Assembly: GCA_963718605.1 (NCBI GenBank)
Contig: OY970363.1
Location: forward strand, 192,505 to 256,504
DNA length: 64,000 bases
Direction of reading: 5' to 3'
DNA from: an uncultured Actinomycetes bacterium
GTDB lineage: Bacteria; Actinomycetota; Acidimicrobiia; Acidimicrobiales; JACCXE01
Both the position numbers and the translations under genes were made by a program. This document shows positions 5,235 through 42,421 of this stretch, piece after piece; position 1 is the stretch's first letter, and each line of letters starts with the position of its first letter. The notes beneath the pieces are model-generated. The model did no database searches. It was given only the letters and a program-made list of their open reading frames with translations, and was not told the origin of the DNA.

Positions 5235-6002
5235 CTAATAGCGCGCTGCGTTCCGATCCGCTCCGTCGATCATTCCGATGTACTCGTATGGCTCCCACCC
5301 GAGGAGTGACCTGAGCCGAACTGTCGCGTCGACGTGCACCCGCGGATCTAGCGAGACGAAGAAGTTCTCTTGCTGCCGAACAAAGGGTCGGCAGTAATAG
5401 GCGAGCAAGGCGTGCCGACGTGTCGCGGTCCGGTTCGCGCCGGTCCGGTGCCATAGACGCGCGTCAAGGCAAAGCGCCGACCCCGCGGGGCATTCGATGG
5501 GCGTGAGCGTATCGATTGCCGGCGGATCATCGATACGGTGGCTGCCGATGGAAACCTCGGTGGCTCCGTTCTCAGCCGTGAAGTCGTCGAGCGCCCAGAT
5601 CACCGTTGCTGCGAGGGCATACGGCCAAGGTCGCGGAGCGTACAACTGATCGTTGTGGACGACCATCGGCTCTCCGCCGTGACCAGCAATGTTGGCACTC
5701 AGGTTCGACAGTAGGAACGGCCGGTCGAGCAGTTCCGCTACTAGGGCGAGCGCAATCTCGTGCTCGGCCAGTGCGACGAAAACATCGTCCTTGTTAAGCA
5801 GAGACCAGACTCGCTGGTTGCAACCGTTTGAATAGACGAAGTCGGTATCCCGAGCGACTTCGTCCGCGGCAATCGAGAGGAGGCGAGTACGAGTGTGTGC
5901 ACACTCCTCGCTGGTGAGCGCGTCGCGCACTACGCAGCAACCGAACTCGCGCAGGTCGGCGGCGGCTTGGACGAGGGAGGTCACGGGTAGCGGCCCACTC
6001 AT
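5235..6002 (-). CDS. phytanoyl-CoA dioxygenase (PhyH) family Fe(II)/2-oxoglutarate hydroxylase
   Basis: MVVHNDQ (HxD facial-triad part, so hydroxylase-type rather than halogenase-type), distal His in RLWHRTGANRT, and PhyH-like length. Start set to ATG 6002 (MSGPLPVTSL). The 67-codon extension of ORF 5235..6203 is Arg/Pro/Ala-rich and looks non-coding. Confidence 0.75.
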   Translation of the reverse strand: MSGPLPVTSLVQAAADLREFGCCVVRDALTSEECAHTRTRLLSIAADEVARDTDFVYSNGCNQRVWSLLNKDDVFVALAEHEIALALVAELLDRPFLLSNLSANIAGHGGEPMVVHNDQLYAPRPWPYALAATVIWALDDFTAENGATEVSIGSHRIDDPPAIDTLTPIECPAGSALCLDARLWHRTGANRTATRRHALLAYYCRPFVRQQENFFVSLDPRVHVDATVRLRSLLGWEPYEYIGMIDGADRNAARY

Positions 6003-6471
6003 TGTGGTCTTCTCACGGATGACGCAGTGTCGTTTTAACGGATTCAGAAGACGTCCCAAAGACCACGGCGCAGAAGCCCTCGCCGACGCTCCATGCGTCC
6101 TTGGTCGCGGACTCGCTCCTCCTGTCGCAATCGGCGACAGTGCTGCCGGAACAGACGCGGCAAGCGTTCGCGAACCCGGCGGCATCGACCGAGGATCTCC
6201 CAAGGGCGCTCTGCCTAGCGACAGTCACGATGACAACGCCCCTTCGCGACCGAGCGCGACCGAGCGCGACCGGCACAGCATCGTTCGTTTGAGTTGGGTT
6301 GGGCGCCGGGCCATGACTTCTCCGATGCTTGGAGGCTCCACGAAACCGATGCCGATTCAAATTGATCGGGTCTCAGTTTCCCGTTCCTGCGACTCGCCAC
6401 GCCGTCGCACGTCCGGTGACTACGTAGCGTCGCGCGACTACTGAATCGGCTTTTCGCGAACTTGAACCGCC

Positions 6472-9400
6472 CTAGATGGTATCGAGATAAGCGAGAACTT
6501 CCGGCGCATCCAGAAGTTTCGAGTGCTCGACTAGCGTGTCCACCGTCACTATTTGCATCGTCGGGTAGACGACGTTCCAGGTGGATCTCAACTGCTCCGT
6601 TAGCTGTAATCGTGGACTCGCGATCAATAGCTCTGTAGAAACATCGTACGCCGCGACAGATTGATTAGCGCATTGGAACGCAAGTAGCAGCCAACTACTA
6701 TGAAACTCGTACTCACCGATGTCGTTCCCATGGCTTGGCAGTACTCGACGCACGATTTCTATCGCACGCTCCAGTTGGCTCCGTCCGTTCGTAGGGTCAA
6801 ATGGCTGGTGCAACCCCGCTGCGGCGAACTCATCGAATAATTCGCCCTCCATACCAAATGCTTCGGGCAAAGTGCTGGCGGAGTAGACAGATTGCGCCCG
6901 TATTGCTTCCAAAGGAGTGGGCTCCACGAGTACCAAATTAACGTTAAGCCCAAGGTTTTTGAGTTCAGTCGCCGCGATCGTCGCTGGCCATCCTGACAGG
7001 CTGAAGCCCACCACGGTTACTTTCGTAATGCCGTCGACGAGCATCGCCTGAATCATGCGGGCTCGCCTTCGCGCATCATCGTGAAGGTCGACCGAATAGA
7101 CGCCGTCGACAAATGGTTCAGGATCAAGCGCGTACAGCTCGCGTTCGTAGCCGCTCCGTCGCCAATTCGCCTGAACATGACTTGCGATACCGGGACAAGG
7201 CGACAGCAGCCAAATCGGAGGCTTGGTCCCCCGGCTCTGTCCCACCGGGCGCGGCAGCGAGGACCTGTCCTCGCCATCTGCCGCGAGTTCCTCGACGGTT
7301 GGATTCTGAAACAACATTCGAGGCGTGATCTCCACACCGGCGTTTCGTGCCCGTGAGATGACCTGAATGCTCAGGATCGAGTCGCCACCCAACGCGAAGA
7401 AATCATCGTGGACACCGACACGGTCCACTCCCAACACCTCACACCAAATCCCCGCAAGGAGTTCCTCAGTCGGAGTCCGCGGCGCCACAAACTCCTGGCC
7501 CAACTCCGGCCGCGAACCATCCGGCGCCGGCAACGCCTTGCGATCAACCTTGCCATTCGGCGTCAACGGCAACCCGTCCAACACCACAAACGCCGACGGC
7601 ACCATGTAATCCGGCAACACCCGACGCAGAGACTCACGCAACTCCGTCGTCGACAGAACACTCCCATCGACGGGCACCACATAACCAACCAACCGCTTGT
7701 CACCCGGCGCATCCTCCCGAGCAACCACCACCGCCTCACCCACCCCCACACAACCCAGCAACGCGGCCTCAACCTCACCACACTCAATCCGGAACCCCCG
7801 GATCTTCACCTGATCATCCAGCCGACCCAAAAACTCCAAATTCCCATCCGGCAAATACCGCACCACATCACCAGTCCGATAAAGCCGCGCCCCCGCCACA
7901 TCACTAAAGGGATGCGGCACAAACCGCTCCGCCGTCAACTCCGGACGACGCAAATACCCCCGCGCCAAACCCACCCCACCAATAAACAACTCGCCCGCCA
8001 CACCCACCGGCACCGGACGACCCCACCGATCCAACACAAACAACTCCGTATTCGCAATCGGCCGACCAATCGGCGGCGACCCGACACCGTTCGAGCTGAT
8101 GCGGCCGGCAGTGGTCACGACCGTGCACTCCGTCGGCCCGTAATGATTCACGATCTCAAACGGGACGCCCCCAACGCGTGCCGACCAACGATCACCTCCC
8201 ACCAACAACCTGCCCAGAGACGCGTCAGACGCGCTGGGACTAGACACAACACCTTCCGCCATCGCCGTCGGTAAGAACGTGGTAGTCAAACCGTCGCGCT
8301 CCCACCAACCCAAAACGGCTTCAACGTCACCCCGGGCGGCACTAGGCACAAGCGACAATGACGCCCCGCTCGACAGCGGAGGCCACACCTCCCACACCGA
8401 CGCGTCAAACGCTAACGAAGCGAACTGGCCACAACGCTGCGCCGCATCCAACCCGTAAGCCCCAACATGCCAACTCACCAAGTTGGTGAGGCTGCGGTGT
8501 TCGATGAGGACGCCCTTGGGTTGGCCGGTGGATCCCGACGTATAAATCACATAAGCCAAGTCGGTGGCAGTCGCCGCCGGACCCGGGTTCGTGTCCGGGA
8601 AGCCGTCATAAACCGACGACTCGTCCAAACACAGAACCTCAGCAACACCAACGGGCAACGAGCCCAGAAGATGACGCTGACTCAACAGGACTGGCGCGGC
8701 GGTGTCCTCGAGCATGAACGCAAGCCGATCAGCGGGATAGTCGGGATCCAACGGCACATACGCGCCTCCCGCCTTCAAAATCGCGAGTAACCCGACCACC
8801 ATCTCCGGGCTGCGCTCCACACAGATCCCGACCAACACATCCGGACCCACACCCAGATCACGCAAATGATGCGCCAACCGGTTCGCCCGCCGATTCAACT
8901 CCCCATAAGACAGCGACACATCCTCAAACACCACCGCGGTCGCATCAGGATCCCGAACAACCTGATCCTCGAACAACTCATGCACACAACGATCCGACGG
9001 AAACTCGACCGCCGTGTCATTCCACTCCACCAACAACTGGCGCCGCTCATCAACGCCAAGCAACTCCAACTCACCGATCCGACAATCCGGATCCGCCACC
9101 ATCCCCGCCAACAGGTTCCGCAAATGCCCCGCCATCCGCGCCACCGTCGACGAATCAAATCGTCGAGTGTCGTGGGAGAGGCGCAGCGACAAATGGGGGC
9201 GAGGCGAGGCGACGAGTAGTAGCGGGAAGTTTGTTTGTTCGTGGGCTCCGACGATGCGGACGTCGAACTCGTCGCGTTGAGGGGCAGCCGCCTCGATGGG
9301 GTAGTTCTCAAAGACGACGATATTTTCGAAAAGCGACGTGCCGGGTGGTAGTTCGCTGAGGTTCTGGATTTCTGCGAGCGAGCTGTATTCGAATTCGCGC

Positions 9401-12400
9401 AGCTCTATTTGTCTGTCCTGTAACTCGGTGAGCAAGTCGAGCACTGAAAACTCCCCGTCGACGCGCACGCGGACAGGCAGGGTGTTGATAAAGCAGCCCA
9501 CCATCGATTCGACTCCGGGTAACGCCGCTGGTCGTCCTGAGGTCGTTGCGCCGAACACGACGTCGGTTTCGCCGCTATGAGCAGCGAGCAAGAGGGCCCA
9601 GGCGCCTTGAACCAGGGTGTTCAAAGTGAGGCGATGCTCTGCGGCAAATTGTTGAAGGAGCGCCGATAGTTCCTCATTGACCGTGACTTGCTGCGACACG
9701 ACCCGCGGCATCTCATCTAACTCCGATTTATCCGCAGCGCTTCCCAGTGTTAGCGGACTTGAGAAACCTGCCAGGTAATCACGCCAGAAGGCTTGAGCCG
9801 ACGCTTGATCCTGACCAGCGATCCATTGGATGTAATCCCGATAGGGCCGAGCCGCAACCGGAGCGGGACCACCTCCATAGACGGCGAACACCTCGTTAAC
9901 GACACGACCCACGCTCCAACCGTCGAGAAGAAGATGGTGATAGCTCCACACCAGCCGATGTTTTCGGTCGGACTCGCGGATGCATCGGAATCGCATTAGC
10001 GGTGCCCGCGTTAGTTCGAATCCGGCGGCCCGATCAGTAGCCAGAAGTGCGCGTAGGGACTCCCGCTGTTCCGCGTGGTTTTGGTCTCGCCAGTCAAGAT
10101 GTGCGAACTCGACGTCGGGTGATCGAACCACCACCTGAACGGGCTGGTCGAGCCCGTCCCAGAACACCGCCGCACGCAACGATTCGTGACGCGAGATCAC
10201 GTCAAGCCAGGATTGTTCCAGCCTGCTGGCGTCAATGCCCTCAAACTGCATTTCAAGTTGCTCCACGTAGACGCCCGAATCCGGCGCGAACAACGTGTGG
10301 AACAACATGCCCTGCTGTAACGGCGCCAGTGGGTATATGTCCTCGACGCGGCGTAATCCGCCACACAAATCACCGATGCGATCGAGCTGCGACGGACTCA
10401 ACCGCGCCAATGGAAAATCCGAAGGCGTGCAACCCTCGAACCCGACCGCGGTGCAGTGCTTGATGAGAGTTCGCAACTCAGCGAGAAACGCTGTGACTAA
10501 AACCTCAATGGTCGAACGTTCATGCAAGTCGCGCGAAAACGTGAAACCCACCTGCAGTTCACCGTCAACTACTTGAGCTACGACATCAAGTACATGGTCG
10601 CGTTGTGCATCAGGAGATCGTTCCCACCCCCGCGCCTCGCTCAGAACCCGAAACATCGACGCGGAGACCGCCGAAGAACTCTGCCCCAAATAGTTGAAAC
10701 TCAGTTCCGCCGAAGCCGCCAACATCTCACGAACGGAACTGTCGGGATGTAAATGTCGCAACAAGCCAAATCCGATTCCGCGACCGGGAACCGTCCTTAG
10801 CTGTTCCTTGACCGAGATGAGGGTCTCACCCGGATCCACGACATCCTCAAGATCAAGACACACAGGGAAGAGAGAAGTGAACCATCCGATAGTCCGAGAC
10901 AAATCGATGTCATCAAAAAGGTCCTCCCGGCCATGACCCTCAAGGTTGACCAACACCTTTGTCGAGCCAGCCCAACTGCTCACCGCTCGACCCAACGCCG
11001 CCAGCAACACATCATTGATCTGCGTCCGATAAATCGGGGGAACATCACGCAACAACGACGCCGTCGAACTTCGATCTAACTGCGCGCCGACAACGTCAGT
11101 AGAACCGACCCGATTCAGACCATCTCGATAGTCCAGCGGTAACGGCGTAGCCGACCGGACTCCGCTCCAATACTCAAGTTCAGCATTGAGCTCAGGGGAA
11201 GAAGCGAAGTCGGTCAGACGCTGCGACCACGCCTGGAACGAACTCGTCTTAGCCGGCAACTGCACTACCAAACCATCACGGAGTTGCGAATAGACCAGTC
11301 CGAGATCCTCAAAAAGAATCGACCAGGACACCCAGTCAATGACGAGATGGTGTGCCACCAGAAGCAGTCGCGCCTGACCCCCACCCAGATCAAACCAACA
11401 CGCGCGCACCAGCGGACCTGCGCACAAATCCAGTCCGGCTTGGATCCGCCCCGCATGCTCCTGCAACAGACTTAGCCAATTCGGATGTCCCGACAGATCG
11501 ACCCGTTCAAGCATGAACGGGCCGATCTGTGCGTCGCAGTGTTGCCGCCAAGCACCGTCAATCAACTCAAAACGAAGGCGCAACGCGTCGTGATGGCCAA
11601 CTAGCTCTCCGAGCGCCTCCTCCAACAGATCCGCATGGGTGCCAGCCGTTACCTCCAAGAGCATCGACTGATTGAAATGGTGCGCATCAACGGTCGATCC
11701 TTCTAAGAACCAACGCTGGATCGGGCTCAACAACACGTGCCCCTCAACAGCCGCCTGAGATGCATGCACCCCGATCGAATGGCCCGCCACCGCCGCGAGT
11801 TCCTCGACGGTTGGATTCTGAAACAACATTCGAGGCGTGATCTCCACACCGGCGTTTCGTGCCCGTGAGATGACCTGAATGCTCAGGATCGAGTCGCCAC
11901 CCAACGCGAAGAAATCATCGTGGACACCGACACGGTCCACTCCCAACACCTCACACCAAATCCCCGCAAGGAGTTCCTCAGTCGGAGTCCGCGGCGCCAC
12001 AAACTCCTGGCCCAACTCCGGCCGCGAACCATCCGGCGCCGGCAACGCCTTGCGATCAACCTTGCCATTCGGCGTCAACGGCAACCCGTCCAACACCACA
12101 AACGCCGACGGCACCATGTAATCCGGCAACACCCGACGCAGAGACTCACGCAACTCCGTCGTCGACAGAACACTCCCATCGACGGGCACCACATAACCAA
12201 CCAACCGCTTGTCACCCGGCGCATCCTCCCGAGCAACCACCACCGCCTCACCCACCCCCACACAACCCAGCAACGCGGCCTCAACCTCACCACACTCAAT
12301 CCGGAACCCCCGGATCTTCACCTGATCATCCAGCCGACCCAAAAACTCCAAATTCCCATCCGGCAAATACCGCACCACATCACCAGTCCGATAAAGCCGC

Positions 12401-30300: not shown

Positions 30301-30704
30301 ACTGCCCAAAGAGCCGCGCGCCATAGCGGAGCCGCACGTAAGTCGAACGGCCTTTGAACAAACGCCGTAACGGATCGCAGCAGATCATCCTCTGACAACT
30401 CTCCAACCGTGAAGTAAGCGCTGACATCGAGTGCGTCCTCGACCACCACGTGCGCCAACCCGGCGTGAATCTCAAATCTGCTCCGCAACGAGCCGTGGGA
30501 TACGACCACCTCGCTCCATGCGTCGCGCAACGCGACCGGGTGAACTGAACCACTTATGCGGCACGCGAACCATGCGTTGTATTGAGAGCTTGCACCGTGC
30601 AGCTCGTCAAGGAACCAAATTCCTTGCTGCGCGAGCGAGGCTATGTAGGTCCGTTCTTCATCGTCTTCGTCACGAAGCCCTGGGCCTGTCGACAGATCCG
30701 CCAT
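24342..30704 (-). CDS. non-ribosomal peptide synthetase NRPS-B, 2 modules: C-A-T / C-A-T
   Basis: 2120-aa ORF starting at ATG 30704. C motifs HHAIVDGWS and HHIVTDGWS, two full A domains, and T motifs GGHSLLA then GGDSILS. The stop overlaps the NRPS-C start. Confidence 0.97.
24345..27478 (-). other. NRPS module 2 (C-A-T), predicted Val-like
   Basis: Variable A region ~25171-25758. Pocket D A F W V G N T F K is the same code as module 4, although the cores are only related and not identical. The terminal T is GGDSI-type. Confidence 0.65.
25759..28359. repeat. NRPS direct repeat, copy 2 of 2 (partner 19481-22081)
   Basis: See the partner entry. This pair spans NRPS-B and NRPS-C. Confidence 0.9.
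27479..30704 (-). other. NRPS module 1 (C-A-T), substrate not recognised
   Basis: A core ~28360-28820 is identical to the NRPS-A loading domain. Pocket read as D A L Y F G H V L K, which matches no code I know. Confidence 0.6.
27787..28861. repeat. NRPS direct repeat, copy 1 of 2 (1075 bp; partner 32009-33083 in NRPS-A; offset 4222 bp)
   Basis: Includes the complete specificity core of A1 and A0. Antisense ORFs 28438..28839 and 32660..33061 are identical, as are 28217..28444 and 32439..32666. Confidence 0.9.
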
Positions 30705-30780
30705 AGCACGCCTCAGTTCTTAGAAAGTGCTAGCTGGGCGCATTGACGCGGACCCAGTTGCTCGAGCATCTCGCACGTAC

Positions 30781-33513: not shown

Positions 33514-33552
33514 GGGTAACGCACGCCCGCAGCCCTAACTCGTATTGACCGG

Positions 33553-34587
33553 TTACGTCGTGGCGCCGACGGCGCGGTTGCTACGAGAAATCATCTTGAG
33601 CACGGCGGAGCAGTATCGTTCGGAGACCGCGAGCCGCAACAACGCGCCCTCGATGATGCGGTCAGCGACGGCCGGGCTTGCCATGATCTCGGGAATCACG
33701 ACATCGCTCGCCCAGTCTGAGGCGTGGTCTCCGTCCGCCTCAACGTGTTCCGCGTAGTACGCATGGACGGCCGGTGGCAGACAGAGTCGCTGCACTGCGC
33801 GAACAACGTTCTCAAACCGCCACGGAACCGCACCCTCAGTCACGACTAGAGCGCCGATGCTTTCAAAATAGAACGTCCGATACCGCGCTAGGACATGGAA
33901 GAGGTTTCCCGCTGCATGCGCCTCGGGTAGCAAATCGCAAGGTGCAGTAGTGACGCTCTCTTGGGCATTTCGGAAGAGGACCAGGTGGTCCGAGTCCGGA
34001 CGGCCCGCGCCCACCTCGTCCCAGAGGTTTCGCACTATCACCCGCTTTGACTGCCCGCTAGCTCCGACTTGGGTCATCGCCAAAAAATCGGCGAAGGATG
34101 CGTCCACCGTACGTTCCTGGCCCATAAAGAACGCGAGATCGTCGCGTTCGGCGCTCTCGGCTAGTTGCGAGTACAGATTGTTTCGTGCAGGCGTCGACGC
34201 GAGCGCCACGGCAAACCAGTCGTTGAAACACTCAGCAACGGCAGAACCCACCGAATCCAGATCAGTCGGCGCCCACGCCAGGTGTGGCTGGTTCGCTACG
34301 AACTCCGGAAGTCTTCGCTTCTCGTGCGAGATCCATTCTTGCGACATTCGCGCGAGCGTTGCGTGCAAAGCGGGATCTAGCTCATCGGCTATGGGATTTC
34401 GAGTTGATGTCGCCCTCAGCAAACACGCCAGGGCTCTGTGAAAGGCAGCCCACGAGTCATCGTCGAGTTGATCGAGGCCCAACTTGAAAAACTCTCGAGC
34501 GGCTCGAACGGCGAGATCGACTTCGTCTTGATCCGGCGACGCGTCGTAATTCATATTGGGCTGCACCGCCACCCCGGGCATGGCCAT
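33553..34587 (-). CDS. heme-oxygenase-like di-iron (iron-containing redox enzyme) family protein
   Basis: NLWDEVGAGRPDSDHLVLF, LVVTEGAVPWRFE and YYAEHVEADGDHASDW supply the Glu/His ligand pattern of the Haem_oxygenase_2/HDO family. Start set to ATG 34587 (MAMPGVAV). The 103-codon extension of ORF 33553..34896 overlaps the PPTase gene and looks non-coding. Confidence 0.55.
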   Translation of the reverse strand: MAMPGVAVQPNMNYDASPDQDEVDLAVRAAREFFKLGLDQLDDDSWAAFHRALACLLRATSTRNPIADELDPALHATLARMSQEWISHEKRRLPEFVANQPHLAWAPTDLDSVGSAVAECFNDWFAVALASTPARNNLYSQLAESAERDDLAFFMGQERTVDASFADFLAMTQVGASGQSKRVIVRNLWDEVGAGRPDSDHLVLFRNAQESVTTAPCDLLPEAHAAGNLFHVLARYRTFYFESIGALVVTEGAVPWRFENVVRAVQRLCLPPAVHAYYAEHVEADGDHASDWASDVVIPEIMASPAVADRIIEGALLRLAVSERYCSAVLKMISRSNRAVGATT

Positions 34588-34787
34588 CCTCGTGACGCCA
34601 CCCAGCGAACATCGGAGTTGCCTGCCAATCTCTGCTCCCCACCGTACGCACCGAGCCGTCGAGCCGATCCAATGCGGAACCCTCGCGATCGCGGTGGGCC
34701 CAAATGGCCTCGACAAGGGCAGACTACCGTGAAGCAGATAGCTCCGGGGGGAAAGACGCCTCCCTTTGTCGCGGTCTTGTTCGTCCG

Positions 34788-35426
34788 TCAGGTCTCGTAA
34801 ACTCTTAGAACCGCTGGTCGAGTGGGTTGACGATCGCAGCGCACCGCCAACACAGTCGCAATTCGGTCCCAGGTGCCGACACGCTGCAGAGACCACAGGG
34901 CGCCGTCGAACGGCACGACGCTCCGGTTAAGTGCAGTCAGAACCGGCCATTCGGATGCGACAAGGCCTTTCCCGCTTGCCTTAAGAATCGCCTCCTTGGA
35001 CGCCCACACGAGCGCGAGCCCGAGCGCCGTGTCGCCAAACCGCTCCACCAGCTCCAGTTCGCCGGGCGACAGAAACTTAGGGCCAAAGGTGCCGTCGACC
35101 ACCGCCGGTTCGATGTCAACGCCAATGGCTGAAGCGTCCGAGACACCAACCATCGCGACGTCTCCGCCTCGCGATGCCGAATACGTTAGGCCCTTCTGCA
35201 GCAATTCGAGGCAAACTGGCTTGCCGTGCAGCGCGTGGCCGCAATGACGACAGTGGCGATCGAAACTCAGCGCGTTGCCGAGCGCGCCGACGTAAGTCGA
35301 CAACACTTCACGTTGAAACGTCCGCCTTTGACTTGTCTCAATCGCCACACGCTCGATTCGCTCCGACCGGCTTTGGACACGGCCGGGCAAACTGAGGTGC
35401 CTGAACCAAACATCGACAAAGGTCAT
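34788..35426 (-). CDS. Sfp-type 4'-phosphopantetheinyl transferase
   Basis: 212 aa starting at ATG 35426. AIGVDIEP and LVWASKEAILKASG are the PPTase motifs (G-x-D-x-E and W-x-x-K-E-A-x-x-K). Confidence 0.85.
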   Translation of the reverse strand: MTFVDVWFRHLSLPGRVQSRSERIERVAIETSQRRTFQREVLSTYVGALGNALSFDRHCRHCGHALHGKPVCLELLQKGLTYSASRGGDVAMVGVSDASAIGVDIEPAVVDGTFGPKFLSPGELELVERFGDTALGLALVWASKEAILKASGKGLVASEWPVLTALNRSVVPFDGALWSLQRVGTWDRIATVLAVRCDRQPTRPAVLRVYET

Positions 35427-35459
35427 TTCACGCGCGGAAACCGCCGCACTCGGCTCGGA

Positions 35460-36035
35460 CTAACCGTCAATTGCGTCGCGATACTGAGGCTTGAGCTTCC
35501 ATGAAGGAACGGGAGTTACGACTCCTGGTTGCGGCACGTACTCGGACACGCCCTCAAGGGCCATCTTATGGATGTATCGGGAGCAACTCGAAAATGCCCG
35601 TACAACCTGCACCCGTATCTCGAGCTGAGCGCCGTACCATCGATCTTGCGGCGAGTCTCGGTGAATGGACGCTCTGCCCTCGACCAATGTTCGAGCCTGC
35701 TCGGCAAAGTCGATAAACAGCAAGGCAACCCGCGGATTCAAAGTGAGGTTGCCAAGGCTTCGAAACGTTCCGTTCCCGTCAAAGTCTGGAAACGCGAGCT
35801 CGGTGGGCCCGAGAATGCGAACGAAACCAGGTTCTCCACCCTTGTACGAGCACAATGGCTCACCAGAACTCGGGTCAGCCGTCGCGAGAAAGAACATGCT
35901 CTGGCGGGCGATGAAGCCGACATCAGAGTCCGTGAGTTTCTGTCGCGCCTCGTGGGTCGCGAGCCGGTCCGCAAGCTCCTCGGTCCCAAATGCTGCTTGA
36001 AGTGACCGTGAGCCTTCGTTGAACATCGATCGCAT
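35460..36035 (-). CDS. pyridoxamine 5'-phosphate oxidase-like FMN-binding (split-barrel) family protein
   Basis: 191 aa. SMFFLATADPSSGEPLCSYKGGEPGFVRILGPTELAFPDFDGNGTFRSLGNLTLNPRVALLFIDF is the conserved core of the PNPOx-related flavoprotein family (COG3576-like). Confidence 0.7.
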   Translation of the reverse strand: MRSMFNEGSRSLQAAFGTEELADRLATHEARQKLTDSDVGFIARQSMFFLATADPSSGEPLCSYKGGEPGFVRILGPTELAFPDFDGNGTFRSLGNLTLNPRVALLFIDFAEQARTLVEGRASIHRDSPQDRWYGAQLEIRVQVVRAFSSCSRYIHKMALEGVSEYVPQPGVVTPVPSWKLKPQYRDAIDG

Positions 36036-36270
36036 CCCTTCGCTGTTGGATCGCCCGCATGATCTGGAATTTGGCGATCAGCGTAGAGCCCCACTCCAAC
36101 GTCAGCCGCGAAGCGACACGTCGCCTGGGTTTGATTGGAACTCCTTGGTTGGCGTCGCTCGAAAATTGACGGTACTCGGACCCGCCGTCGGCGAGTGTGA
36201 GGTTGCCGAGTTCGCGAGGCGTATGTCGTGACCAGGCGGCCGGCAAGGGGTCGCTATCTGAGGTCGGGCT

Positions 36271-37056
36271 CTACCCTCTGGTCAGCGCACGAACGACATC
36301 AAGCAGGGAACCAAGAAATTCATCTTCGGCAGACCGAATGAAGAAGTGCTCGCCCGGCACGACCGTGAAGGAGAACTCTTTGTTCGTGTGCTCTCGCCAC
36401 TCCGCTACTTCGGAAGGTGTTGCCTCAGGGTCCGCTTCCCCTGCAAACGCCGCAATCGGGCATGGCAAGCGGGACCCGAGAACGTGAACGTAGTTTTCGG
36501 CTGCAGCTAAGTCGGCCCGAATCGTCGGCAGCATTACGGACAGCAGTTCGCGAACTACGTCGGGCTTTTCAGTGCTTGCGGCCCCAAGAGCGAGTTCTTC
36601 AACTAGCTCATCGTCGGACAGGCTGGTCTTCGGCGGCCGTCGCTCCGGAAGGTGGGGCGCCGGGCAGCCTGCGACACACAACAGTCGAACGGGTACGCCT
36701 GCATCGAGCAGGAGCCGCGTCGCGAGGTACGCCGCTAGCGCGCCCATGCTGTGGCCGAAGATCAGAGGCGGTGGTCCCTCTAGCGACGCAATGTCATCAG
36801 CAAGCGCTTGGGCGATTAGGTGCAGGTCGCGCAGAGGGGTTTCGTTAAAGCGTCTCTCACGGCCGGGAAAGCATGCTGCGAACGGAACGAGGCCCGCCCT
36901 TACAAGACGCGGCGTCCAACTCCTGAACGCTCCGGGGCCGCCACCGGCGAACGGCACCAAAACAATGTTCTGAAGCGCATCGACACTCCTAGTGCGATTT
37001 TTGTCGAGCAGTACCAGCGATCGTGGTACGGAGACGGGTGTCACCCGGTCACGCAC
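36271..37056 (-). CDS. type II (editing) thioesterase
   Basis: VLVPFAGGGPGAFRSW and LIFGHSMGALAAY (GHSMG nucleophile elbow), ~260 aa, first gene of the NRPS operon. The start is GTG and uncertain by some codons. Confidence 0.85.
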   Translation of the reverse strand: MRDRVTPVSVPRSLVLLDKNRTRSVDALQNIVLVPFAGGGPGAFRSWTPRLVRAGLVPFAACFPGRERRFNETPLRDLHLIAQALADDIASLEGPPPLIFGHSMGALAAYLATRLLLDAGVPVRLLCVAGCPAPHLPERRPPKTSLSDDELVEELALGAASTEKPDVVRELLSVMLPTIRADLAAAENYVHVLGSRLPCPIAAFAGEADPEATPSEVAEWREHTNKEFSFTVVPGEHFFIRSAEDEFLGSLLDVVRALTRG

Positions 37057-37669
37057 TCAAGCCGTAGGCCGCTGTCATCAGCTGGCCCCGTGTTGCACCG
37101 CTTGGCGTCAACGTCATGGACAGCTCGGTGCTGTGAGTCTCGCGATGGTTCTTACCGCGATGCCTGCTCCGTGCTGCCACAGATCAGAGCGCCGCAAGTG
37201 GGCTGTCGGTTCGCCGCGCGCGTGGCCGATTCACGGCGACCATGTATACCAAATTTGGTCGAATCATCCGCCTGGTCCCGATGGGCTGCATGCGTCGGCC
37301 TTCGTCGGACCTGCGCACCTACGGGAGTCAAGCGATCCGTTGGAACCTGGTTTGAGCTTGGTCGTCCAGGGAGGCGCAAGTGTCTGCCCATGCTCACGGT
37401 GAGATAGCGCTGATGCGCGACAGCTGCGGAGCGGCCGCAGGATTCTCCCGGAAGGTCGAGACTGGACCCAACCGACGCGACAACCTTGGACTTACTGTCG
37501 AGTAGCGAGGAACCAACATTTCGTCGGGCTCCCGACGTATGTCCGCGAACCACGAGGTGCCGACACTTGACTCCGATGAACCCGCAAACGGTCGAGGGCG
37601 AGGCGGGTGCAGGAAGTCCCGGTCCATTTCGCGCACGAGGTCATAGTGTGACTGGACTACGAGCTTGGG

Positions 37670-39577
37670 GTGAGCGACATGAGACAGCGGCGGTGGCCGG
37701 GCCAAGATCTTTGGGACGCATGGCACGGGAGGTCAACGAGTCGTTCGGCACGTTGGGCCCTCGTTGCGCTGCTGCCGAAGATCAGCCTTCCGCTCACGGT
37801 CGGAGCTGTTTGGGTCGCTGCGTCGAATGCGGCGGGCATCGTCGCTTTCACGGTCAGTTCTGGGCTACTGATCGGCAGCGTGCCTGGTGCCGTCAGCCAT
37901 GGGATGGGCTCGGCGGATGGCACTCGGCTCAAGATGCTGCTCACTGTGGTCTGCGCGATCTTCGTCTACCAACAAGTTCTCGGGCCGATCCAAACCTTGA
38001 TCGTGCAGCAGTTCTCGCGCCGCATCAACGGCAACCTCCGCTCTCGCGTCATGCGAGCCGCACTTCGGCCGTCCGGCATTGCTCACCTTGAACGTGCTGA
38101 TCTCTTAGACAAGGTCCGCGATGCGCAAGGAGTGGGCGAAGGGCAGTTCACGCCGGGCGGCGCCGTCGGCGCGCTGGTGTCCACGCTGACCCTCCGATTG
38201 AACGTGTTGGCGATGGGTGTGATCGTCGCAGGGTTCCGATGGTGGCTGGCATTCGTCCTCGTCGGTTTCGGGGCGGTAGTCCGGTATCGACTTGTCGAGG
38301 ACATGCTGCGCACGGCTCAGTCGGGTCGAGGCATGACGGAAGGGCTGCGCCGCGCCGATTACTTACGGGAGCTTGCGTTGACGCCGGATGCCGCGAAGGA
38401 GACACGCGTATTCGGACTCGGTGCGTGGCTGCTTGACCGATTCAAGACGCAGTGGCTCGGGTCGATGGAGCTGCTGTGGCGTGAGCGACGAGAGCGGGAC
38501 AGCTCTCCTTGGTCGTGGAGCATCCCGTGGGGTGTGATTACGTTCGGCGCAGTTTGGATCGTGGGAAGCGCCGGCATTTCCGGCGAGCTGAGCCTGGGTC
38601 GGACGATGATCATGGTCCAGGCCGTATTTCAGGCTGGCAATATCTGGATCTCTAACGATGACGTGCAGCTGGCCTACGGCGCGACGTCGGTGCCGGCGGT
38701 GCGTGAGCTTGAAGAGGCGCTGCAGGAGCCGGAACTGAGTCTCGGCGGCAGCGATGCCGCCGGGTTGCCGCACGCGTCCATCTCGATCGAGGGGGTTCAC
38801 TTCAGCTATCCCGGCAGTGAGGATCCCGTGCTCAGCGGCGTCGACCTTCAAATCCCTGTTGGCCGGTCACTCGCGATTGTCGGAGTCAACGGCGCGGGGA
38901 AGACGACGCTTGTAAAGCTTTTGGCCCGGCTCTACGACCCGACCGCGGGTCGGATCGTCATCGACGGCGTCGACCTCCAAACGCTCGACGCTTCCAGTTG
39001 GCAGCGCCAGCTCGCAGCCATCTTTCAAGACTTCACCCGTTTCGAGCTATCAGCTCGCGACAACGTCGCGTTCGGCGGCATCAGCCGAACGTGGACCGAC
39101 GCCGAACTCGAAGGAATCGCAGCGCGCGTCGGCGCGGCCGACATGATCACGGCGCTGCCGAAGGGGTGGGGCACCACGCTTTCGCGCCAGTTCAGCGACG
39201 GTGCCGATCTTTCCGGCGGTCAATGGCAACGCCTCGCGTTGGCCCGAGCGGTCTGCGCGGTAGCAGCTGGCGCGCAACTGCTCATCCTCGATGAACCGAC
39301 CGCTAACCTCGACGTGCGCGCCGAGGCCGAGCTATTCGCACGCTTTCTCGAGGTCACGCGAGGCGTCACGACGATCCTGATCTCGCACCGTTTCTCAACT
39401 GTTCGTCTGGCGGACCAGATCTGTGTCCTCGAGAACGGTCTCGTCACCGAGCAAGGCGGCCACCGCGAGCTCCTGGCAGCTGGCGGTGAATACGCCCGGC
39501 TATTCCGGCTTCAAGCAGCGCGGTTTGTCGAAAGCGACGGCGTCGAGCCGAGCGAGGACGCCCCGGCCGATGCGTAG
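37670..39577 (+). CDS. ABC exporter, fused permease/ATPase subunit 1
   Basis: N-terminal multi-TM region, then GVNGAGKTTLVKLL (Walker A), LSGGQWQRLALARA (signature) and LLILDEPTANLD (Walker B). Confidence 0.9.
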   Translation: MSDMRQRRWPGQDLWDAWHGRSTSRSARWALVALLPKISLPLTVGAVWVAASNAAGIVAFTVSSGLLIGSVPGAVSHGMGSADGTRLKMLLTVVCAIFVYQQVLGPIQTLIVQQFSRRINGNLRSRVMRAALRPSGIAHLERADLLDKVRDAQGVGEGQFTPGGAVGALVSTLTLRLNVLAMGVIVAGFRWWLAFVLVGFGAVVRYRLVEDMLRTAQSGRGMTEGLRRADYLRELALTPDAAKETRVFGLGAWLLDRFKTQWLGSMELLWRERRERDSSPWSWSIPWGVITFGAVWIVGSAGISGELSLGRTMIMVQAVFQAGNIWISNDDVQLAYGATSVPAVRELEEALQEPELSLGGSDAAGLPHASISIEGVHFSYPGSEDPVLSGVDLQIPVGRSLAIVGVNGAGKTTLVKLLARLYDPTAGRIVIDGVDLQTLDASSWQRQLAAIFQDFTRFELSARDNVAFGGISRTWTDAELEGIAARVGAADMITALPKGWGTTLSRQFSDGADLSGGQWQRLALARAVCAVAAGAQLLILDEPTANLDVRAEAELFARFLEVTRGVTTILISHRFSTVRLADQICVLENGLVTEQGGHRELLAAGGEYARLFRLQAARFVESDGVEPSEDAPADA

Positions 39578-41369
39578 CCGCTTCCGTGGTTTGTGGCTCG
39601 TGATGGTGATCGCGGTGCAGGCGGACGCGCCCCGCGCTATCGGAACCTTGATGGTGTCTGCGACCGAAGGTGTCAGCCGCGTCACCCGTCCGTATTGTTT
39701 GAAGCTCGTTGCTGACGGTGTTATCGGGCACGACACCAGCAAGATCGTCATCGCGGCGGCCATCCAGGGTGTCTCACTTGCCGTGCTCGGCGTGATGAAC
39801 CTCGCGCGCAACGAGTGGGGAACAGTGCTCAACGAGAAGGTCGGTTTCCTTCTCGATCAAAGAATCGTTGCCACGACCGCAGGCATCCCTGGCATCGAGC
39901 ACCATGAGCGACCCGAATATCTCGACGAGCTCGCGTTGCTCCGCTCGCAGCGCGGCATATTGTCCACGACAGTCAACGCCGTCATGCTCACCTTTCAGTA
40001 CTTGGTCATGTTCTTCGGAATCGTGGCGCTCGCGGCCCAAGTCCATCCGATTCTTCTACTACTACCCTTCTTTGCGATCCCCTCTCTAGCGACCACGGCG
40101 TTGAGCGCGAAGATCGAGCAGGGAGCGATGGAGCAAACAGCCGAGCGAACTCGGGTCGCACATCACCTATTCGAACTTTCGACGACGGCCGCGCCTGGCA
40201 AAGAACTACGCATCTTCGGCCTCGGCGACAAGCTCGTCGAGCGCTACGAGACCGTATGGGGCGAGTTCGACAAGATCTCGCGCCACGCGTCCGCCAAGGT
40301 CGCCGCGCTCAATGCCTTGGGTTGGGCGATCTTCGCTGCCGGTTATGCCGGCTGCCTCACGTTCGTCGTGGTCCAGGCGATCAACAACCCGTCGCGCATC
40401 ACTGTCGGCGACGTGTCTCTCGCCTTCGTAGCTGCCGGACAGATCAACGGTTTCGTCGGCGGCATCGCCGGAATCCTCTCCTGGCTTTGGTCGACGCTCA
40501 AGACGGTGGGACGTCTCATCTGGTTGACGGACTACGCGACCGAGGCAACGCGCAACTTCGCTCCGACAGACGCGCAACCAGCACCAACGGCGGTCAAGCA
40601 AGGTCTCACTTTCGAAAACGTCGCCTTCACGTACCCCGGCACGAACGCGCCAGTGCTCGACCAAGTGAGCTTTCACGTCCCTGCAGGAGCGACCGTCGCC
40701 CTTGTCGGCGAGAACGGAGCAGGCAAGACCACCCTGGTCAAGCTCCTATGCCAGCTCTACCGCCCCACGTCGGGACGCATCACAGTCGAGGGCATCGATC
40801 TTGCCGAGATCGAGTTCGGCGAGTGGCGACAACAGATCTCCGCCGGCTTTCAAGATTTTGCACGACTCGAACTCCTTGCGCGGGAGGCGATCGGTGTCGG
40901 TGACCTGCCCAATGTCGATTCTGACTCTGCGGTGCTCGCCGCGCTCGATCGCGCGCAAGTCTCTGACGTCGTTACCTCGATGCCGGCAGCACTCGACACC
41001 CAACTCGGCCGCTCGTTCACCGCGGGCGTCGAACTCTCGCTCGGCCAGTGGCAGAAGATCTCGCTCGGTCGCACCATGATGCGCGAACAGCCTCTATTGC
41101 TCATCCTCGACGAACCCACCGCGAGCCTCGACGCGCAGGCCGAGCACGACCTGTTCGAGCGCTACGCCGGAGCAGCGCGCCGCGCCTCAGATGACACGGG
41201 CGCCATCACGTTGCTCGTGTCGCACAGATTCTCGACGGTCCGCATGGCAGATCTCATCGTTGTGCTCGAACACGGCCGCGTCGCAGAAATCGGCAGCCAC
41301 GCCGAACTCGTCGCTAACGCCGAGACGTACGCCGAACTCTACGAACTTCAGGCTCGAACCTACCGGTAG
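39570..41369 (+). CDS. ABC exporter, fused permease/ATPase subunit 2
   Basis: GENGAGKTTLVKLL, LSLGQWQKISLGR and LLILDEPTASLD. Start set to ATG 39570 (MRSRFRGLWLVMV), which overlaps the end of subunit 1 by 8 nt. The ORF-track start 39423 lies inside subunit 1. Confidence 0.9.
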   Translation: MRSRFRGLWLVMVIAVQADAPRAIGTLMVSATEGVSRVTRPYCLKLVADGVIGHDTSKIVIAAAIQGVSLAVLGVMNLARNEWGTVLNEKVGFLLDQRIVATTAGIPGIEHHERPEYLDELALLRSQRGILSTTVNAVMLTFQYLVMFFGIVALAAQVHPILLLLPFFAIPSLATTALSAKIEQGAMEQTAERTRVAHHLFELSTTAAPGKELRIFGLGDKLVERYETVWGEFDKISRHASAKVAALNALGWAIFAAGYAGCLTFVVVQAINNPSRITVGDVSLAFVAAGQINGFVGGIAGILSWLWSTLKTVGRLIWLTDYATEATRNFAPTDAQPAPTAVKQGLTFENVAFTYPGTNAPVLDQVSFHVPAGATVALVGENGAGKTTLVKLLCQLYRPTSGRITVEGIDLAEIEFGEWRQQISAGFQDFARLELLAREAIGVGDLPNVDSDSAVLAALDRAQVSDVVTSMPAALDTQLGRSFTAGVELSLGQWQKISLGRTMMREQPLLLILDEPTASLDAQAEHDLFERYAGAARRASDDTGAITLLVSHRFSTVRMADLIVVLEHGRVAEIGSHAELVANAETYAELYELQARTYR

Positions 41370-42418: not shown

Positions 42419-42421
42419 CGG

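What the first reader, a model, noticed from the sequence alone, without database searches (positions are those of the whole stretch)
5235..41369. Complete-looking NRPS cluster; manual code reading predicts an octapeptide X-X-Val-Gln-Val-Gly-(D)Leu-Leu
The operon order on the minus strand is TEII, PNPOx-like, PPTase, HDO, NRPS-A (A-T-ST), NRPS-B (2 modules), NRPS-C (5 modules, E in module 6, terminal TE), then PhyH. Two ABC exporter genes are divergent. Pocket residues read against GrsA numbering:
- A0 and A1: DALYFGHVLK (unassigned).
- A2 and A4: DAFWVGNTFK (Val-like).
- A3: DAQDLGVVDK (exact Gln code).
- A5: DILQLGLIWK (exact Gly code).
- A6 and A7: DAWFLGHVVK (Leu-like).
I saw no MbtH-like ORF or pathway regulator in the window. 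I do not recognise a known compound with this module order plus a sulfotransferase loading module.
Basis: partly seen in the sequence, partly recalled or inferred. Interest (0 to 1): 0.6.

Follow-up and report, generated by a model that had tools for sequence, protein, structure and literature searches.

The report
Orphan eight-module NRPS with sulfotransferase starter
This is a real, apparently complete gene cluster for an unknown eight-residue non-ribosomal peptide; its first residue is probably sulfonated on the assembly line, and its unusual building block is probably made with a diiron oxygenase and a flavoprotein partner, so it is an interesting but not revolutionary lead for natural-product discovery.

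Summary
On the minus strand, 5235-37056 encodes TEII, a PNPOx-like flavoprotein, a PPTase, an HDO diiron enzyme, NRPS-A (A-T-ST), NRPS-B (2 modules), NRPS-C (5 modules, one E domain, a very divergent terminal hydrolase) and a PhyH dioxygenase. Two ABC exporter genes are divergent. New points:
- The ST domain belongs to the CurM family. In 79 metagenome loci its relatives sit in NRPS C-A-T-ST modules, and 73% of the partner A domains carry Thr, Ser or Tyr codes. These domains therefore sulfonate a side-chain hydroxyl of the carrier-bound residue.
- The HDO's nearest solved relative is the lysine N-oxygenase HrmI, but it lies in a separate subclade that is adjacent or fused to the same PNPOx-like protein.
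- The A0 and A1 cores are identical in DNA, so X1 and X2 are the same monomer.
- The modules share perfect repeats of up to 2.7 kb, so the module count needs read support.
- The genome is an unnamed singleton.

The likely product is sulfo-X-X-Val-Gln-Val-Gly-D-Leu-Leu, with X unknown. I rate it a new variant of a known kind, of moderate interest.

The parts
36271..37056 (-). Type II thioesterase (editing TE), first gene of the operon
   Evidence: Pfam Thioesterase, E 6.6e-32.
35460..36035 (-). PNPOx-like split-barrel flavoprotein, the conserved partner of the HDO
   Evidence: Pfam PNPOx_N, E 2e-11. NCBIfam TIGR04025, an FMN-dependent PPOX-type family, E 1.4e-18 but below its cutoff. It is 56% identical to the PNPOx gene directly upstream of the HDO homologue P0242 in L002, and 54% identical to the PNPOx domain of the PNPOx-HDO fusion P0253. 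The AF2 model (pLDDT 60) matches PNPOx, HupZ and F420-reductase folds in Foldseek.
34788..35426 (-). Sfp-type 4'-phosphopantetheinyl transferase
   Evidence: Pfam ACPS, E 2.4e-09. Weak HetI-type match.
33553..34581 (-). Heme-oxygenase-like diiron oxidase (HDO) of an HrmI-related but distinct subclade. The database gene call is P0121, 342 aa.
   Evidence: Pfam Haem_oxygenas_2, E 3e-30. The best solved relative is HrmI, E 2.3e-34, with 36% identity in the core. The carboxylate and histidine columns E156, E189, H199, E249, H279, D283 and H286 are invariant across 17 homologues. An NJ tree places it in a clade of 14-19 members that excludes HrmI.
30781..33513 (-). NRPS-A, the loading module A0-T0-ST
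   Evidence: Pfam AMP-binding, AMP-binding_C, PP-binding and Sulfotransfer_3. Pocket code DALYFGHVLK. The protein is a singleton, P0001.
30799..31656 (-). CurM-family PAPS-dependent sulfotransferase domain of NRPS-A
   Evidence: Relatives at 38-42% identity are T-ST, A-T-ST, ST-C and ST-TE pieces. It is 33% identical to the crystallised CurM ST sequence (P0176, E 3.8e-39). The PRSGSTLLR loop, PPEL(E), VDK and RHP columns are invariant.
24342..30704 (-). NRPS-B: C1-A1-T1-C2-A2-T2 (X, Val)
   Evidence: Pfam, motifs, codes DALYFGHVLK and DAFWVGGTFK. The A1 core is 100% identical in DNA to the A0 core over 1075 nt.
6472..24345 (-). NRPS-C: C3-A3-T3-C4-A4-T4-C5-A5-T5-C6-A6-T6-E-C7-A7-T7 plus a TE-like domain (Gln, Val, Gly, Leu to D-Leu, Leu)
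   Evidence: Motif map, Pfam on pieces, codes, C and E domain alignment. Its start overlaps the NRPS-B stop by 4 nt.
10396..11763 (-). Epimerisation domain after T6
   Evidence: Pfam Condensation, E 3.5e-76. E motifs present: [35 protein letters not shown]. The His motif reads HHLVIDW. The following C7 starts with the DCL-type motif [13 protein letters not shown].
6472..7248 (-). Divergent C-terminal alpha/beta-hydrolase domain, the putative release TE
   Evidence: Only a weak Abhydrolase_6 hit, E 0.008. No PDB sequence match to a TE. The AF2 single-sequence model has pLDDT 48 and is unusable. phmmer aligns it to canonical terminal TE domains of L098 and L097, with GFSLSG on GWSMGG and Glu on the catalytic Asp.
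5235..6005 (-). PhyH-family Fe(II)/2-oxoglutarate dioxygenase. The likely true start is M67 of the ORF. It lies 466 nt downstream of NRPS-C.
   Evidence: Pfam PhyH, E 3e-24. The best PDB relatives are SptF, FtmOx1 and KanJ at about 1e-9 to 1e-6.
37670..41369 (+). Two divergently transcribed ABC half-transporter genes (TMD-NBD), the putative heterodimeric exporter
   Evidence: Pfam ABC_tran and ABC_membrane. MsbA- and HlyB-like NCBIfam matches.

Best explanation
A functional, horizontally mobile-looking NRPS operon assembles a linear or cyclised octapeptide X-X-Val-Gln-Val-Gly-D-Leu-Leu.

Shown:
- Eight A-T units run in colinear order.
- A0 and A1 have identical cores, so residues 1 and 2 are the same monomer.
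- One E domain follows T6 and a DCL-type C7 follows it, which gives D-Leu7.
- A PPTase, a TEII and an ABC exporter accompany the NRPS genes.

Inferred:
- X is a non-proteinogenic, alpha-amino, medium-sized amino acid with a polar tip. The pocket has Tyr278, Phe299 and His322 and keeps Asp235 and Lys517.
- X is made from a free amino acid by the HDO working with the PNPOx-like flavoprotein. The HDO most likely N-oxygenates a side chain, by analogy with HrmI. The flavoprotein most likely serves as its electron-delivery or follow-up redox partner.
- The PhyH dioxygenase adds or supplies a hydroxyl group.
- While X1 sits on T0, the in-cis CurM-family ST domain uses PAPS to sulfonate a side-chain O-H (C-OH or N-OH). 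C1 then condenses it with X2 on T1, which has no ST.
- The sulfate is most likely retained, giving an anionic N-terminal cap on a hydrophobic peptide.
- The divergent Ser/Glu/His hydrolase releases the peptide and the ABC pair exports it.
For: - Architecture and codes.
- The A0 core equals the A1 core over 1075 nt at 100% identity.
- The ST is a CurM-family enzyme with intact PAPS-loop and catalytic Glu columns.
- 484 relatives were found in JGI metagenomes. The best 79 loci are almost all NRPS C-A-T-ST modules.
- A domains directly before T-ST carry Thr, Ser or Tyr codes in 46 of 63 cases, against 23 of 125 for other A domains of the same loci (odds ratio 12, p 4.5e-13). The ST family therefore acts on side-chain hydroxyls of T-bound residues.
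- Tyr-coded ST modules cannot eliminate sulfate by beta-elimination, which argues for retention in at least those cases.
- A retained sulfate installed by a loading-region ST has a precedent in Planktothrix Oci (PMC2533009). A sulfotransferase acting on a T-bound NRPS intermediate has a precedent in SulN (PMC11298585).
- The HDO's best solved relative is HrmI, its ligand columns are invariant, and the ArgRS-like-HDO fusion P0255 lies in its subclade. HrmI chemistry is described in PMC13108848 and PMC10764440.
- PNPOx-HDO linkage is seen as adjacency in this window and in L002 and as two independent fusions, with PNPOx sequences 54-56% identical to the window protein.
Against: - No predictor or reference set assigns DALYFGHVLK. 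The best match among 188 metagenomic A domains is 6 of 10, so X is a guess.
- The HDO is only 36% identical to HrmI and lies in a different subclade. HDOs with similar ligands do very different chemistry (PMC13108848).
- Other members of the subclade sit in non-NRPS contexts.
- The cluster has no HrmJ/BelL-type cyclopropanase.
- PhyH is separated from NRPS-C by 466 nt and may not belong to the pathway.
- The TE is barely recognisable.
- No PAPS-synthesis genes lie in the cluster.
- Perfect repeats of 2.7 kb, 1.9 kb and 1.1 kb mean the module number rests on an assembly I cannot check.
- The HDOs found next to other ST-NRPS genes are SznF-like and belong to a different clade, so they do not support an ST-HDO link.
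Confidence: 0.5

Rival explanations
1. The sulfate serves as a leaving group rather than a decoration. ST activates a beta- or gamma-hydroxyl, or an HDO-made N-hydroxyl, of T0-bound X. Loss of sulfate then yields a dehydro residue (hydrolysing to an alpha-keto-acyl cap), an aziridine or other small ring, or an N-N or N-C bond at the peptide N-terminus.
For: - The domain is homologous to CurM ST. By established knowledge (McCarthy et al. 2012; Gu et al. 2009, from memory), CurM ST exists only to make a leaving group.
- 17 of the metagenomic ST modules are T-ST-TE termini like CurM (P0125, P0133, P0134 and P0136).
- Thr and Ser dominate the ST-coupled codes.
- An N-oxygenase-like HDO is co-encoded.
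- The ArgRS-like-HDO fusion P0255 in the same subclade recalls the aaRS-mediated O-activation of hydroxylamines in valanimycin and hydrazine pathways (PMC12376268 for hydrazine synthetases; valanimycin from memory).
Against: - No TE follows the ST here, so CurM-type decarboxylative elimination is impossible.
- Tyr-coded ST modules (7 of 63) cannot use sulfate for beta-elimination.
- The one characterised ST-containing NRPS loading region (Oci) keeps its sulfate (PMC2533009).
- Nothing in the cluster is an obvious lyase or cyclase.
Confidence: 0.2
2. X is an ordinary hydrophobic or hydroxy proteinogenic amino acid (a Leu/Ile/Met/Tyr-type). The HDO, PNPOx and PhyH proteins tailor the peptide after or during assembly, or serve an unrelated function. 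ST sulfonates whatever hydroxyl is available.
For: - The pocket resembles the Leu code of A6/A7 at 6 of 10 positions.
- HDO-subclade members occur outside NRPS clusters.
- PhyH lies 466 nt from NRPS-C.
Against: - DALYFGHVLK matches no canonical code that I know, nor any of 188 metagenomic domains at better than 6 of 10.
- A dedicated PNPOx-HDO pair sits inside the operon between TEII and NRPS-A. The same pair sits beside NRPS genes in L002.
- Characterised relatives such as HrmI act on free amino acids to make NRPS building blocks (PMC10764440).
Confidence: 0.2
3. The cluster as read is partly an artefact or is decaying. The module number is inflated or collapsed by mis-assembly of near-identical repeats, and the degenerate TE and the HHLVIDW epimerase motif indicate a non-producing locus.
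For: - Perfect repeats of 2749, about 1888 and 1075 nt lie inside the genes.
- A6-T6 and A7-T7 are identical up to the exact T/E boundary.
- The TE is not recognised by Pfam or by PDB sequence search.
- The source is an unnamed, unannotated 4.1 Mb contig.
Against: - The 5957-aa and 2120-aa reading frames are uninterrupted.
- The variable segments coincide with the pocket subdomain and give sensible, distinct codes. This is the pattern expected from gene conversion or subdomain exchange in real NRPS genes (PMC8097286).
- All catalytic motifs of the A, T, C and ST domains are intact.
Confidence: 0.1

Closest known systems
CurM / olefin synthase ACP-ST-TE ('activating' sulfotransferase, curacin A and cyanobacterial 1-alkenes)
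   Same: The ST domain is homologous: 33% identity, E 3.8e-39 to the crystallised CurM ST. It has the same PAPS loop and catalytic Glu columns and sits immediately after a carrier domain.
   Different: It follows an NRPS A-T loading didomain rather than a PKS ACP. No TE follows it, so decarboxylative elimination cannot occur. His62 of CurM (PPELHLL) is Glu here and in all NRPS-type relatives (PPELELL).
Planktothrix cyanopeptolin synthetase OciA loading region (glyceric-acid GA domain plus sulfotransferase domain)
   Same: An NRPS loading region carries an in-cis sulfotransferase that decorates the N-terminal unit, and an ABC exporter gene is divergent (PMC2533009).
   Different: Oci loads glyceric acid through an FkbH-like GA domain. 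Here a true amino-acid A domain with Asp235 and Lys517 does the loading. Homology between the two ST domains was not tested.
HrmI / BelK (HDO lysine N6-oxygenases making 6-nitronorleucine for hormaomycin and belactosin)
   Same: HrmI is the best solved relative (E 2.3e-34). The candidate iron-ligand columns are conserved, and the enzyme is encoded in an NRPS cluster where it would supply an unusual monomer used twice (PMC13108848, PMC10764440).
   Different: Identity in the core is 36% and the enzyme lies in a separate subclade. It is paired with a PNPOx-like flavoprotein instead of the IDO-like cyclopropanase HrmJ/BelL. The substrate is unknown.
Sulfazecin pathway (SulN acting on SulM PCP3-bound tripeptide)
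   Same: PAPS-dependent sulfonation of an NRPS intermediate while it is attached to a carrier domain (PMC11298585).
   Different: SulN is free-standing and N-sulfonates Dap to enable beta-lactam closure by a Cys-TE. Here the ST is fused, acts at the loading stage, the A code is not Dap-like, and the TE nucleophile is Ser.
NRPSs shaped by intragenic recombination / A-subdomain exchange (hormaomycin, microcystin and others)
   Same: The modules are nearly identical except for the roughly 140-aa pocket subdomain. The phenomenon is reviewed in PMC8097286.
   Different: The degree is extreme, with perfect identity over up to 2.7 kb, which cannot be told apart from an assembly or polishing effect without reads.

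Membership tests
Modular (type I) NRPS cluster | Adenylation domains with core motifs A3, A7, A8 and A10 plus Asp235 and Lys517 | tested here: met
   Eight A domains have [26 protein letters not shown] and NGKVDR. All eight codes start with D and end with K.
Modular (type I) NRPS cluster | Carrier domains with the GGxS phosphopantetheine site, C domains with HHxxxDG, and a PPTase available | tested here: met
   Eight LGG(N/H/D)S sites and seven HHxxxDG C domains. An ACPS-family PPTase lies in the operon.
Modular (type I) NRPS cluster | Terminal release domain (TE, R or terminal C) | tested here: inconclusive
   The C-terminal 260 aa have no Pfam Thioesterase hit and no PDB sequence match to a TE, and the AF2 model is unusable. 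There is only a weak alignment to canonical TEs, with GFSLSG, Glu and His candidates.
CurM/OLS activating sulfotransferase system | ST domain homologous to CurM ST with the PAPS-binding loop and catalytic Glu | tested here: met
   E 3.8e-39 and 33% identity to P0176. The PRSGSTLLR and PPEL columns are invariant.
CurM/OLS activating sulfotransferase system | ST followed by a dedicated TE that hydrolyses, decarboxylates and eliminates sulfate (ACP-ST-TE) | tested here: not met
   NRPS-A ends about 5 residues after the ST domain and the next gene starts with a C domain.
CurM/OLS activating sulfotransferase system | Substrate is a beta-hydroxyacyl thioester | not testable with these tools
   The A0 substrate is unknown. 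Related NRPS ST modules are mostly Thr- or Ser-coded, that is beta-hydroxy, but also Tyr-coded.
HrmI/BelK lysine N6-oxygenase (nitro-forming HDO) | HDO fold with a 3-His/3-carboxylate diiron site | tested here: met
   Haem_oxygenas_2, E 3e-30. The His, Glu and Asp columns are invariant. The assignment of individual columns to ligands is by inference.
HrmI/BelK lysine N6-oxygenase (nitro-forming HDO) | Orthology (same clade) with HrmI/BelK | tested here: not met
   In the NJ tree of 148 cores, the window enzyme falls in a clade of 14-19 members without HrmI. Identity to HrmI is 36%, against 60% for the closest HrmI relatives.
HrmI/BelK lysine N6-oxygenase (nitro-forming HDO) | Co-encoded IDO-like Fe/2OG cyclopropanase (HrmJ/BelL) | tested here: not met
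   The only Fe/2OG gene is PhyH-type, with SptF, FtmOx1 and KanJ as best PDB matches. HrmJ/BelL are IDO-like (PMC10764440).
HrmI/BelK lysine N6-oxygenase (nitro-forming HDO) | Converts L-Lys to 6-nitronorleucine | not testable with these tools
   This needs an enzyme assay.
Oci-type sulfated N-cap loading region | Sulfotransferase domain within the NRPS loading region | tested here: met
   A0-T0-ST, with C1 of the LCL type and not a lipid-starter C.
Oci-type sulfated N-cap loading region | FkbH-like glyceric-acid loading (GA) domain | tested here: not met
   The loading domain is a standard AMP-binding A domain.
Sulfazecin-type N-sulfonation / monobactam | Dap-specific last A domain, a Cys-TE and free-standing SulN | tested here: not met
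   The last A code is Leu-like, the TE candidate nucleophile is Ser, and the ST is fused to the loading module.

The most novel reading that the evidence does not exclude
The fused ST of the loading module O-sulfonates an N-hydroxy (or C-hydroxy) group that the PNPOx-dependent HDO installs on the starter amino acid. Loss of sulfate on the carrier protein then drives an unprecedented ring closure or N-N/N-C bond formation at the peptide N-terminus. That would be an NRPS-borne 'hydroxylate, sulfonate, displace' cassette. In parallel, the PNPOx-like protein would be the long-sought physiological redox partner of an HDO N-oxygenase subclade.
Probability: 0.12. Interest if true: 0.8.

Novelty: new variant of a known kind. 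Interest (0 to 1): 0.5.

Why it matters
If real, the cluster specifies a sulfated, partly non-proteinogenic octapeptide from a lineage with no sequenced close relative, which makes it a concrete genome-mining target.

Two more general points came out of the analysis:
- CurM-type sulfotransferase domains are common, apparently uncharacterised in-line tailoring domains of soil NRPS modules that load Thr, Ser or Tyr. This points to a large hidden class of sulfated or sulfate-activated non-ribosomal peptides.
- One HDO subclade is consistently adjacent or fused to a PNPOx-like flavoprotein. This gives a testable candidate for the native redox partner of these diiron enzymes, which are currently run in vitro with artificial reductants.

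Tried and rejected
- Organism identification failed. The window has no tRNA or Rfam hit. The exact-protein look-up gave no names or accessions. The source genome is not among the GTDB representatives found by the HDO pattern scan.
- The HDO k-mer search returned only the query itself, so the full HMMER scan was needed.
The 6-sequence version mostly returned a broader HDO family in non-NRPS contexts, without PNPOx, ST or PhyH neighbours, so it says little about function.
- I considered an ST-HDO co-occurrence. Four of 80 ST loci have an HDO next door, but these are SznF-like HDO-cupin proteins with an arginine methyltransferase, which is a different pathway. I rejected this as support.
- Structure prediction of the C-terminal domain from a single sequence gave pLDDT 48, so I ran no fold search on it.
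- I tried to classify C3 as DCL or dual E/C. Its N-terminal motif is DCL-like, and its nearest relatives (31-36% identity) follow T domains in line without an E domain. I found no second His motif and had no reference set, so this is left open.
- Promoter and terminator scans were uninformative.
- Literature searches for NRPS-embedded T-ST modules and for the pocket codes found nothing specific.
- Contexts of several HDO relatives lay on contigs too short to be useful.


Full report
**Observation.** The window is 59-65% G+C. A block at 6-34 kb has a strong coding-strand skew and slightly lower G+C than its flanks. ORF listing and Pfam/NCBIfam scans confirm the minus-strand gene order:
- TEII, 36271-37056
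- PNPOx-like protein, 35460-36035
- Sfp-type PPTase, 34788-35426
- HDO (Haem_oxygenas_2), ORF 33553-34896, database gene call 33553-34581
- NRPS-A, 30781-33513
- NRPS-B, 24342-30704
- NRPS-C, 6472-24345, overlapping the NRPS-B stop by 4 nt
- PhyH dioxygenase, 5235-6203, with a likely true start at 6005

Two ABC half-transporter genes (37670-41369) are divergent. A motif map gives A-T-ST; C-A-T-C-A-T; and (C-A-T)x4-E-C-A-T-X. The E domain has every E-type motif, but its His motif reads HHLVIDW. The C domain after it starts with the DCL-type [13 protein letters not shown].

**Pocket codes.** I aligned the eight A domains to GrsA-PheA. The GrsA sequence was recalled from memory and validated by returning DAWTIAAICK. 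I read positions 235 to 517.
- A0 = A1: DALYFGHVLK.
- A2 = A4: DAFWVGGTFK.
- A5: DILQLGLIWK.
- A6 = A7: DAWFLGHVVK.
- A3: DAQTLGVVDK in the small alignment and DAQDLGVVDK in larger ones. The difference comes from where a 4-residue gap is placed.

The corrected code is one substitution from the canonical Val code (from memory). The colinear reading X-X-Val-Gln-Val-Gly-D-Leu-Leu stands. No MbtH signature was found.

**Release domain.** The last 260 residues are not recognised as a thioesterase by Pfam (only Abhydrolase_6, E 0.008) or by PDB sequence search. A single-sequence AlphaFold model was too poor to use (pLDDT 48). phmmer aligns the domain weakly (conditional E 2e-6) to canonical terminal TE domains of two metagenomic NRPSs. 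In that alignment GFSLSG falls on GWSMGG and a Glu falls on the catalytic Asp. I therefore call it a divergent Ser/Glu/His hydrolase, and the call is provisional.

**Repeats.** The NRPS genes contain perfect or near-perfect internal repeats:
- 2749 nt: 12987-15735 equals 16146-18894.
- About 1888 nt: 7272-9159 matches 11785-13671.
- 1075 nt: 27787-28861 equals 32009-33083.

The last of these makes the A0 core, including its whole pocket, identical to the A1 core, so residues 1 and 2 must be the same monomer. Elsewhere the modules differ mainly in a roughly 140-aa pocket subdomain. A7-T7 copies A6-T6 up to the exact T/E junction. This is the signature of gene conversion or subdomain exchange known from real NRPSs (PMC8097286). 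It also means the module count depends on an assembly that I cannot verify. The intact 5957-aa frame argues for the assembly.

**Provenance.** NRPS-A, NRPS-B and several flank proteins are in the protein collection only as singletons at 90% identity. All are on one 4,099,595-bp contig held by NCBI and ENA, without names. The HDO pattern scan of GTDB representatives did not return the source genome. The organism is unknown and has no sequenced close relative.

**The sulfotransferase.** The ST domain's nearest relatives (38-42% identity) are T-ST, A-T-ST, T-ST-C and ST-TE fragments. The crystallised CurM ST scores E 3.8e-39 at 33% identity. The PAPS loop (PRSGSTLLR), the PPEL(E) segment that carries the catalytic Glu of CurM (residue role from memory), and the VDK and RHP columns are invariant.

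A scan of JGI metagenomes found 484 relatives. The best 79 loci are almost all NRPS genes with C-A-T-ST modules, either in line (T-ST-C, 37 modules) or terminal (about 22, of which 17 have a GxSxG-containing tail like CurM ST-TE). I extracted the Stachelhaus codes of the A domains immediately upstream of T-ST. There were 26 Thr, 13 Ser and 7 Tyr codes among 63 domains. Among 125 other A domains of the same loci the figure was 23 (odds ratio 12, Fisher p 4.5e-13). The loci are not independent, so the p-value is only indicative.

The simplest reading is that these domains sulfonate a side-chain hydroxyl of the carrier-bound residue. Tyr-coded modules cannot lose sulfate by beta-elimination, so at least there the sulfate should persist. 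A minority (7) carry Lys-, Orn- or Dab-like codes, which suggests N-sulfonation or action on N-hydroxy groups. I found no paper describing such in-line NRPS ST modules, and a 2022 review of unusual NRPS domains does not list them. The relevant precedents are:
- the Planktothrix Oci loading region (GA plus S domains, sulfated glyceric-acid cap; PMC2533009);
- SulN, which acts on a T-bound tripeptide in sulfazecin biosynthesis (PMC11298585);
- CurM ACP-ST-TE.

**The HDO and its partner.** The k-mer search found only the HDO itself. The full HMMER scan found 477 relatives, the best at about 41% identity. The only strong solved relative is HrmI (E 2.3e-34). HrmI is the diiron lysine N6-oxygenase that makes 6-nitronorleucine via N6-hydroxylysine (PMC13108848, PMC10764440). 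In a neighbour-joining tree of 148 core regions, the window enzyme falls in a clade of 14-19 members that excludes HrmI, with 36% core identity to it. The His, Glu and Asp columns expected for a 3-His/3-carboxylate site are invariant.

The same subclade contains:
- P0242, whose gene lies directly downstream of a PNPOx gene and beside A-T and C-A-T genes (L002);
- the PNPOx-HDO fusion P0253 (a second PNPOx-HDO fusion, P0340, is a more distant relative, outside this subclade);
- an ArgRS-like-HDO fusion.

The window's PNPOx protein is 56% identical to the L002 PNPOx protein and 54% identical to the PNPOx domain of P0253. That is more conserved than the HDOs are among themselves. Its AlphaFold model (pLDDT 60) matches PNPOx, HupZ and F420-reductase split barrels. 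I infer a two-component system in which the flavoprotein either delivers electrons to the diiron site or carries out the next redox step. Other subclade members sit in non-NRPS contexts, which fits action on free amino acids.

The PhyH protein is a generic Fe/2OG dioxygenase (best PDB matches SptF, FtmOx1 and KanJ). It is not the IDO-like HrmJ/BelL cyclopropanase (PMC10764440), so nitrocyclopropylalanine is not indicated.

**Mechanism proposed.** The HDO and the PNPOx-like protein, possibly with PhyH, convert a primary amino acid into X. A0 and A1 both load X. ST sulfonates X on T0 with PAPS. C1 to C7 extend the chain, E inverts Leu7, the divergent hydrolase releases the peptide and the ABC pair exports it.
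- Shown: the architecture, the identity of the A0 and A1 cores, ST family membership and its association with hydroxy-amino-acid modules, and the PNPOx-HDO linkage.
- Inferred: the identity of X, N-oxygenation as the HDO reaction, which atom is sulfonated, and whether the sulfate is retained.

The DALYFGHVLK pocket keeps Asp235 and Lys517 and is lined by Tyr278, Phe299 and His322. It has no match better than 6 of 10 among 188 metagenomic domains and none in the literature.

**Rivals.**
- Sulfate as a leaving group, giving a dehydro or keto cap, a small ring, or an N-N or N-C bond. This is the more novel reading. CurM ancestry and the co-encoded N-oxygenase-like enzyme support it. The missing TE and the Oci and Tyr precedents count against it.
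- X is proteinogenic and the three redox enzymes act elsewhere.
- Partial assembly artefact or a decaying locus.

**Verdict.** It is a new variant of a known kind: an orphan NRPS cluster with an amino-acid-loading A-T-ST starter module and a PNPOx-HDO monomer cassette. Interest is moderate at 0.5. Orphan NRPS clusters are common, but the ST-module class and the PNPOx-HDO pairing are testable leads of wider value.

Noticed in passing
L085-L163 (metagenome loci), e.g. L089:2-20839, L093:2-17425, L143:3470-12817: CurM-type sulfotransferase domains are widespread in-line NRPS tailoring domains, in C-A-T-ST-C and C-A-T-ST(-TE) modules, some proteins with two ST modules. 484 relatives were found in JGI metagenomes. 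The partner A domains are 73% Thr-, Ser- or Tyr-coded, against 18% for other A domains of the same loci. I found no paper describing this module type.
   Followed up: yes
L143:12919-17739, L153:2784-7523, L103:14888-16306, L098:7590-9149: Four ST-containing NRPS loci have an SznF-like HDO-cupin protein (about 470 aa) immediately downstream. In the two loci where the downstream genes were scanned (L143, L153), two PD40 beta-propeller proteins and an arginine-methyltransferase-like gene follow. This suggests N-nitroso or diazeniumdiolate chemistry combined with sulfated Tyr or Thr peptides.
   Followed up: partly
window 53367-57000 (+): A complete Gabija anti-phage pair: GajA (PADLOC E 5.8e-74) and GajB (E 3e-83).
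   Followed up: yes
window 41750-53093: A probable defence or toxin island lies between the NRPS cluster and Gabija. It holds a RES-domain toxin (41750-42418, -) with an unannotated upstream partner ORF (42422-43378), a 1056-aa CHAT-domain protein (43087-46257, -) and a Schlafen/AlbA_2 protein (46304-47638, -). Three large ORFs have no Pfam or PADLOC hit (47934-49910 +, 49645-51168 +, 51525-53093 -).
   Followed up: partly
window 12987-18894, 7272-13671, 27787-33083: Perfect or near-perfect intragenic repeats of 2749, about 1888 and 1075 nt. NRPS modules differ almost only in a roughly 140-aa specificity subdomain. This is an extreme case of concerted evolution or subdomain exchange, or else an assembly or polishing effect.
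   Followed up: partly
window 22996-24345 (-) (C3, N-terminus of NRPS-C) and T2 at the C-terminus of NRPS-B: C3 is a divergent C domain (HHSILDGRS; DCL-like N-terminal motif [13 protein letters not shown]) that receives Val from a T domain of the 'LGGDSI' type, yet NRPS-B has no E domain. Its nearest relatives (31-36% identity) follow T domains in line in metagenomic NRPSs. The configuration of Val3 is therefore uncertain.
   Followed up: partly
L165:4851-9563: An ArgRS-like (tRNA-synt_1d)-HDO fusion protein from the same HDO subclade sits next to a fatty-acid-desaturase-family gene and a B3_4 (PheRS-beta-like) domain gene. It may be an aminoacyl-activation plus N-oxygenation pathway.
   Followed up: no
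window 2248-5232 and 59094-62988: Sugar and envelope modification genes flank the region on both sides. On one side are a PIG-L deacetylase, a methyltransferase and a GT4 glycosyltransferase. On the other are a GFO/IDH/MocA oxidoreductase, a DegT aminotransferase and a HAD hydrolase. They are probably unrelated to the NRPS.
   Followed up: no
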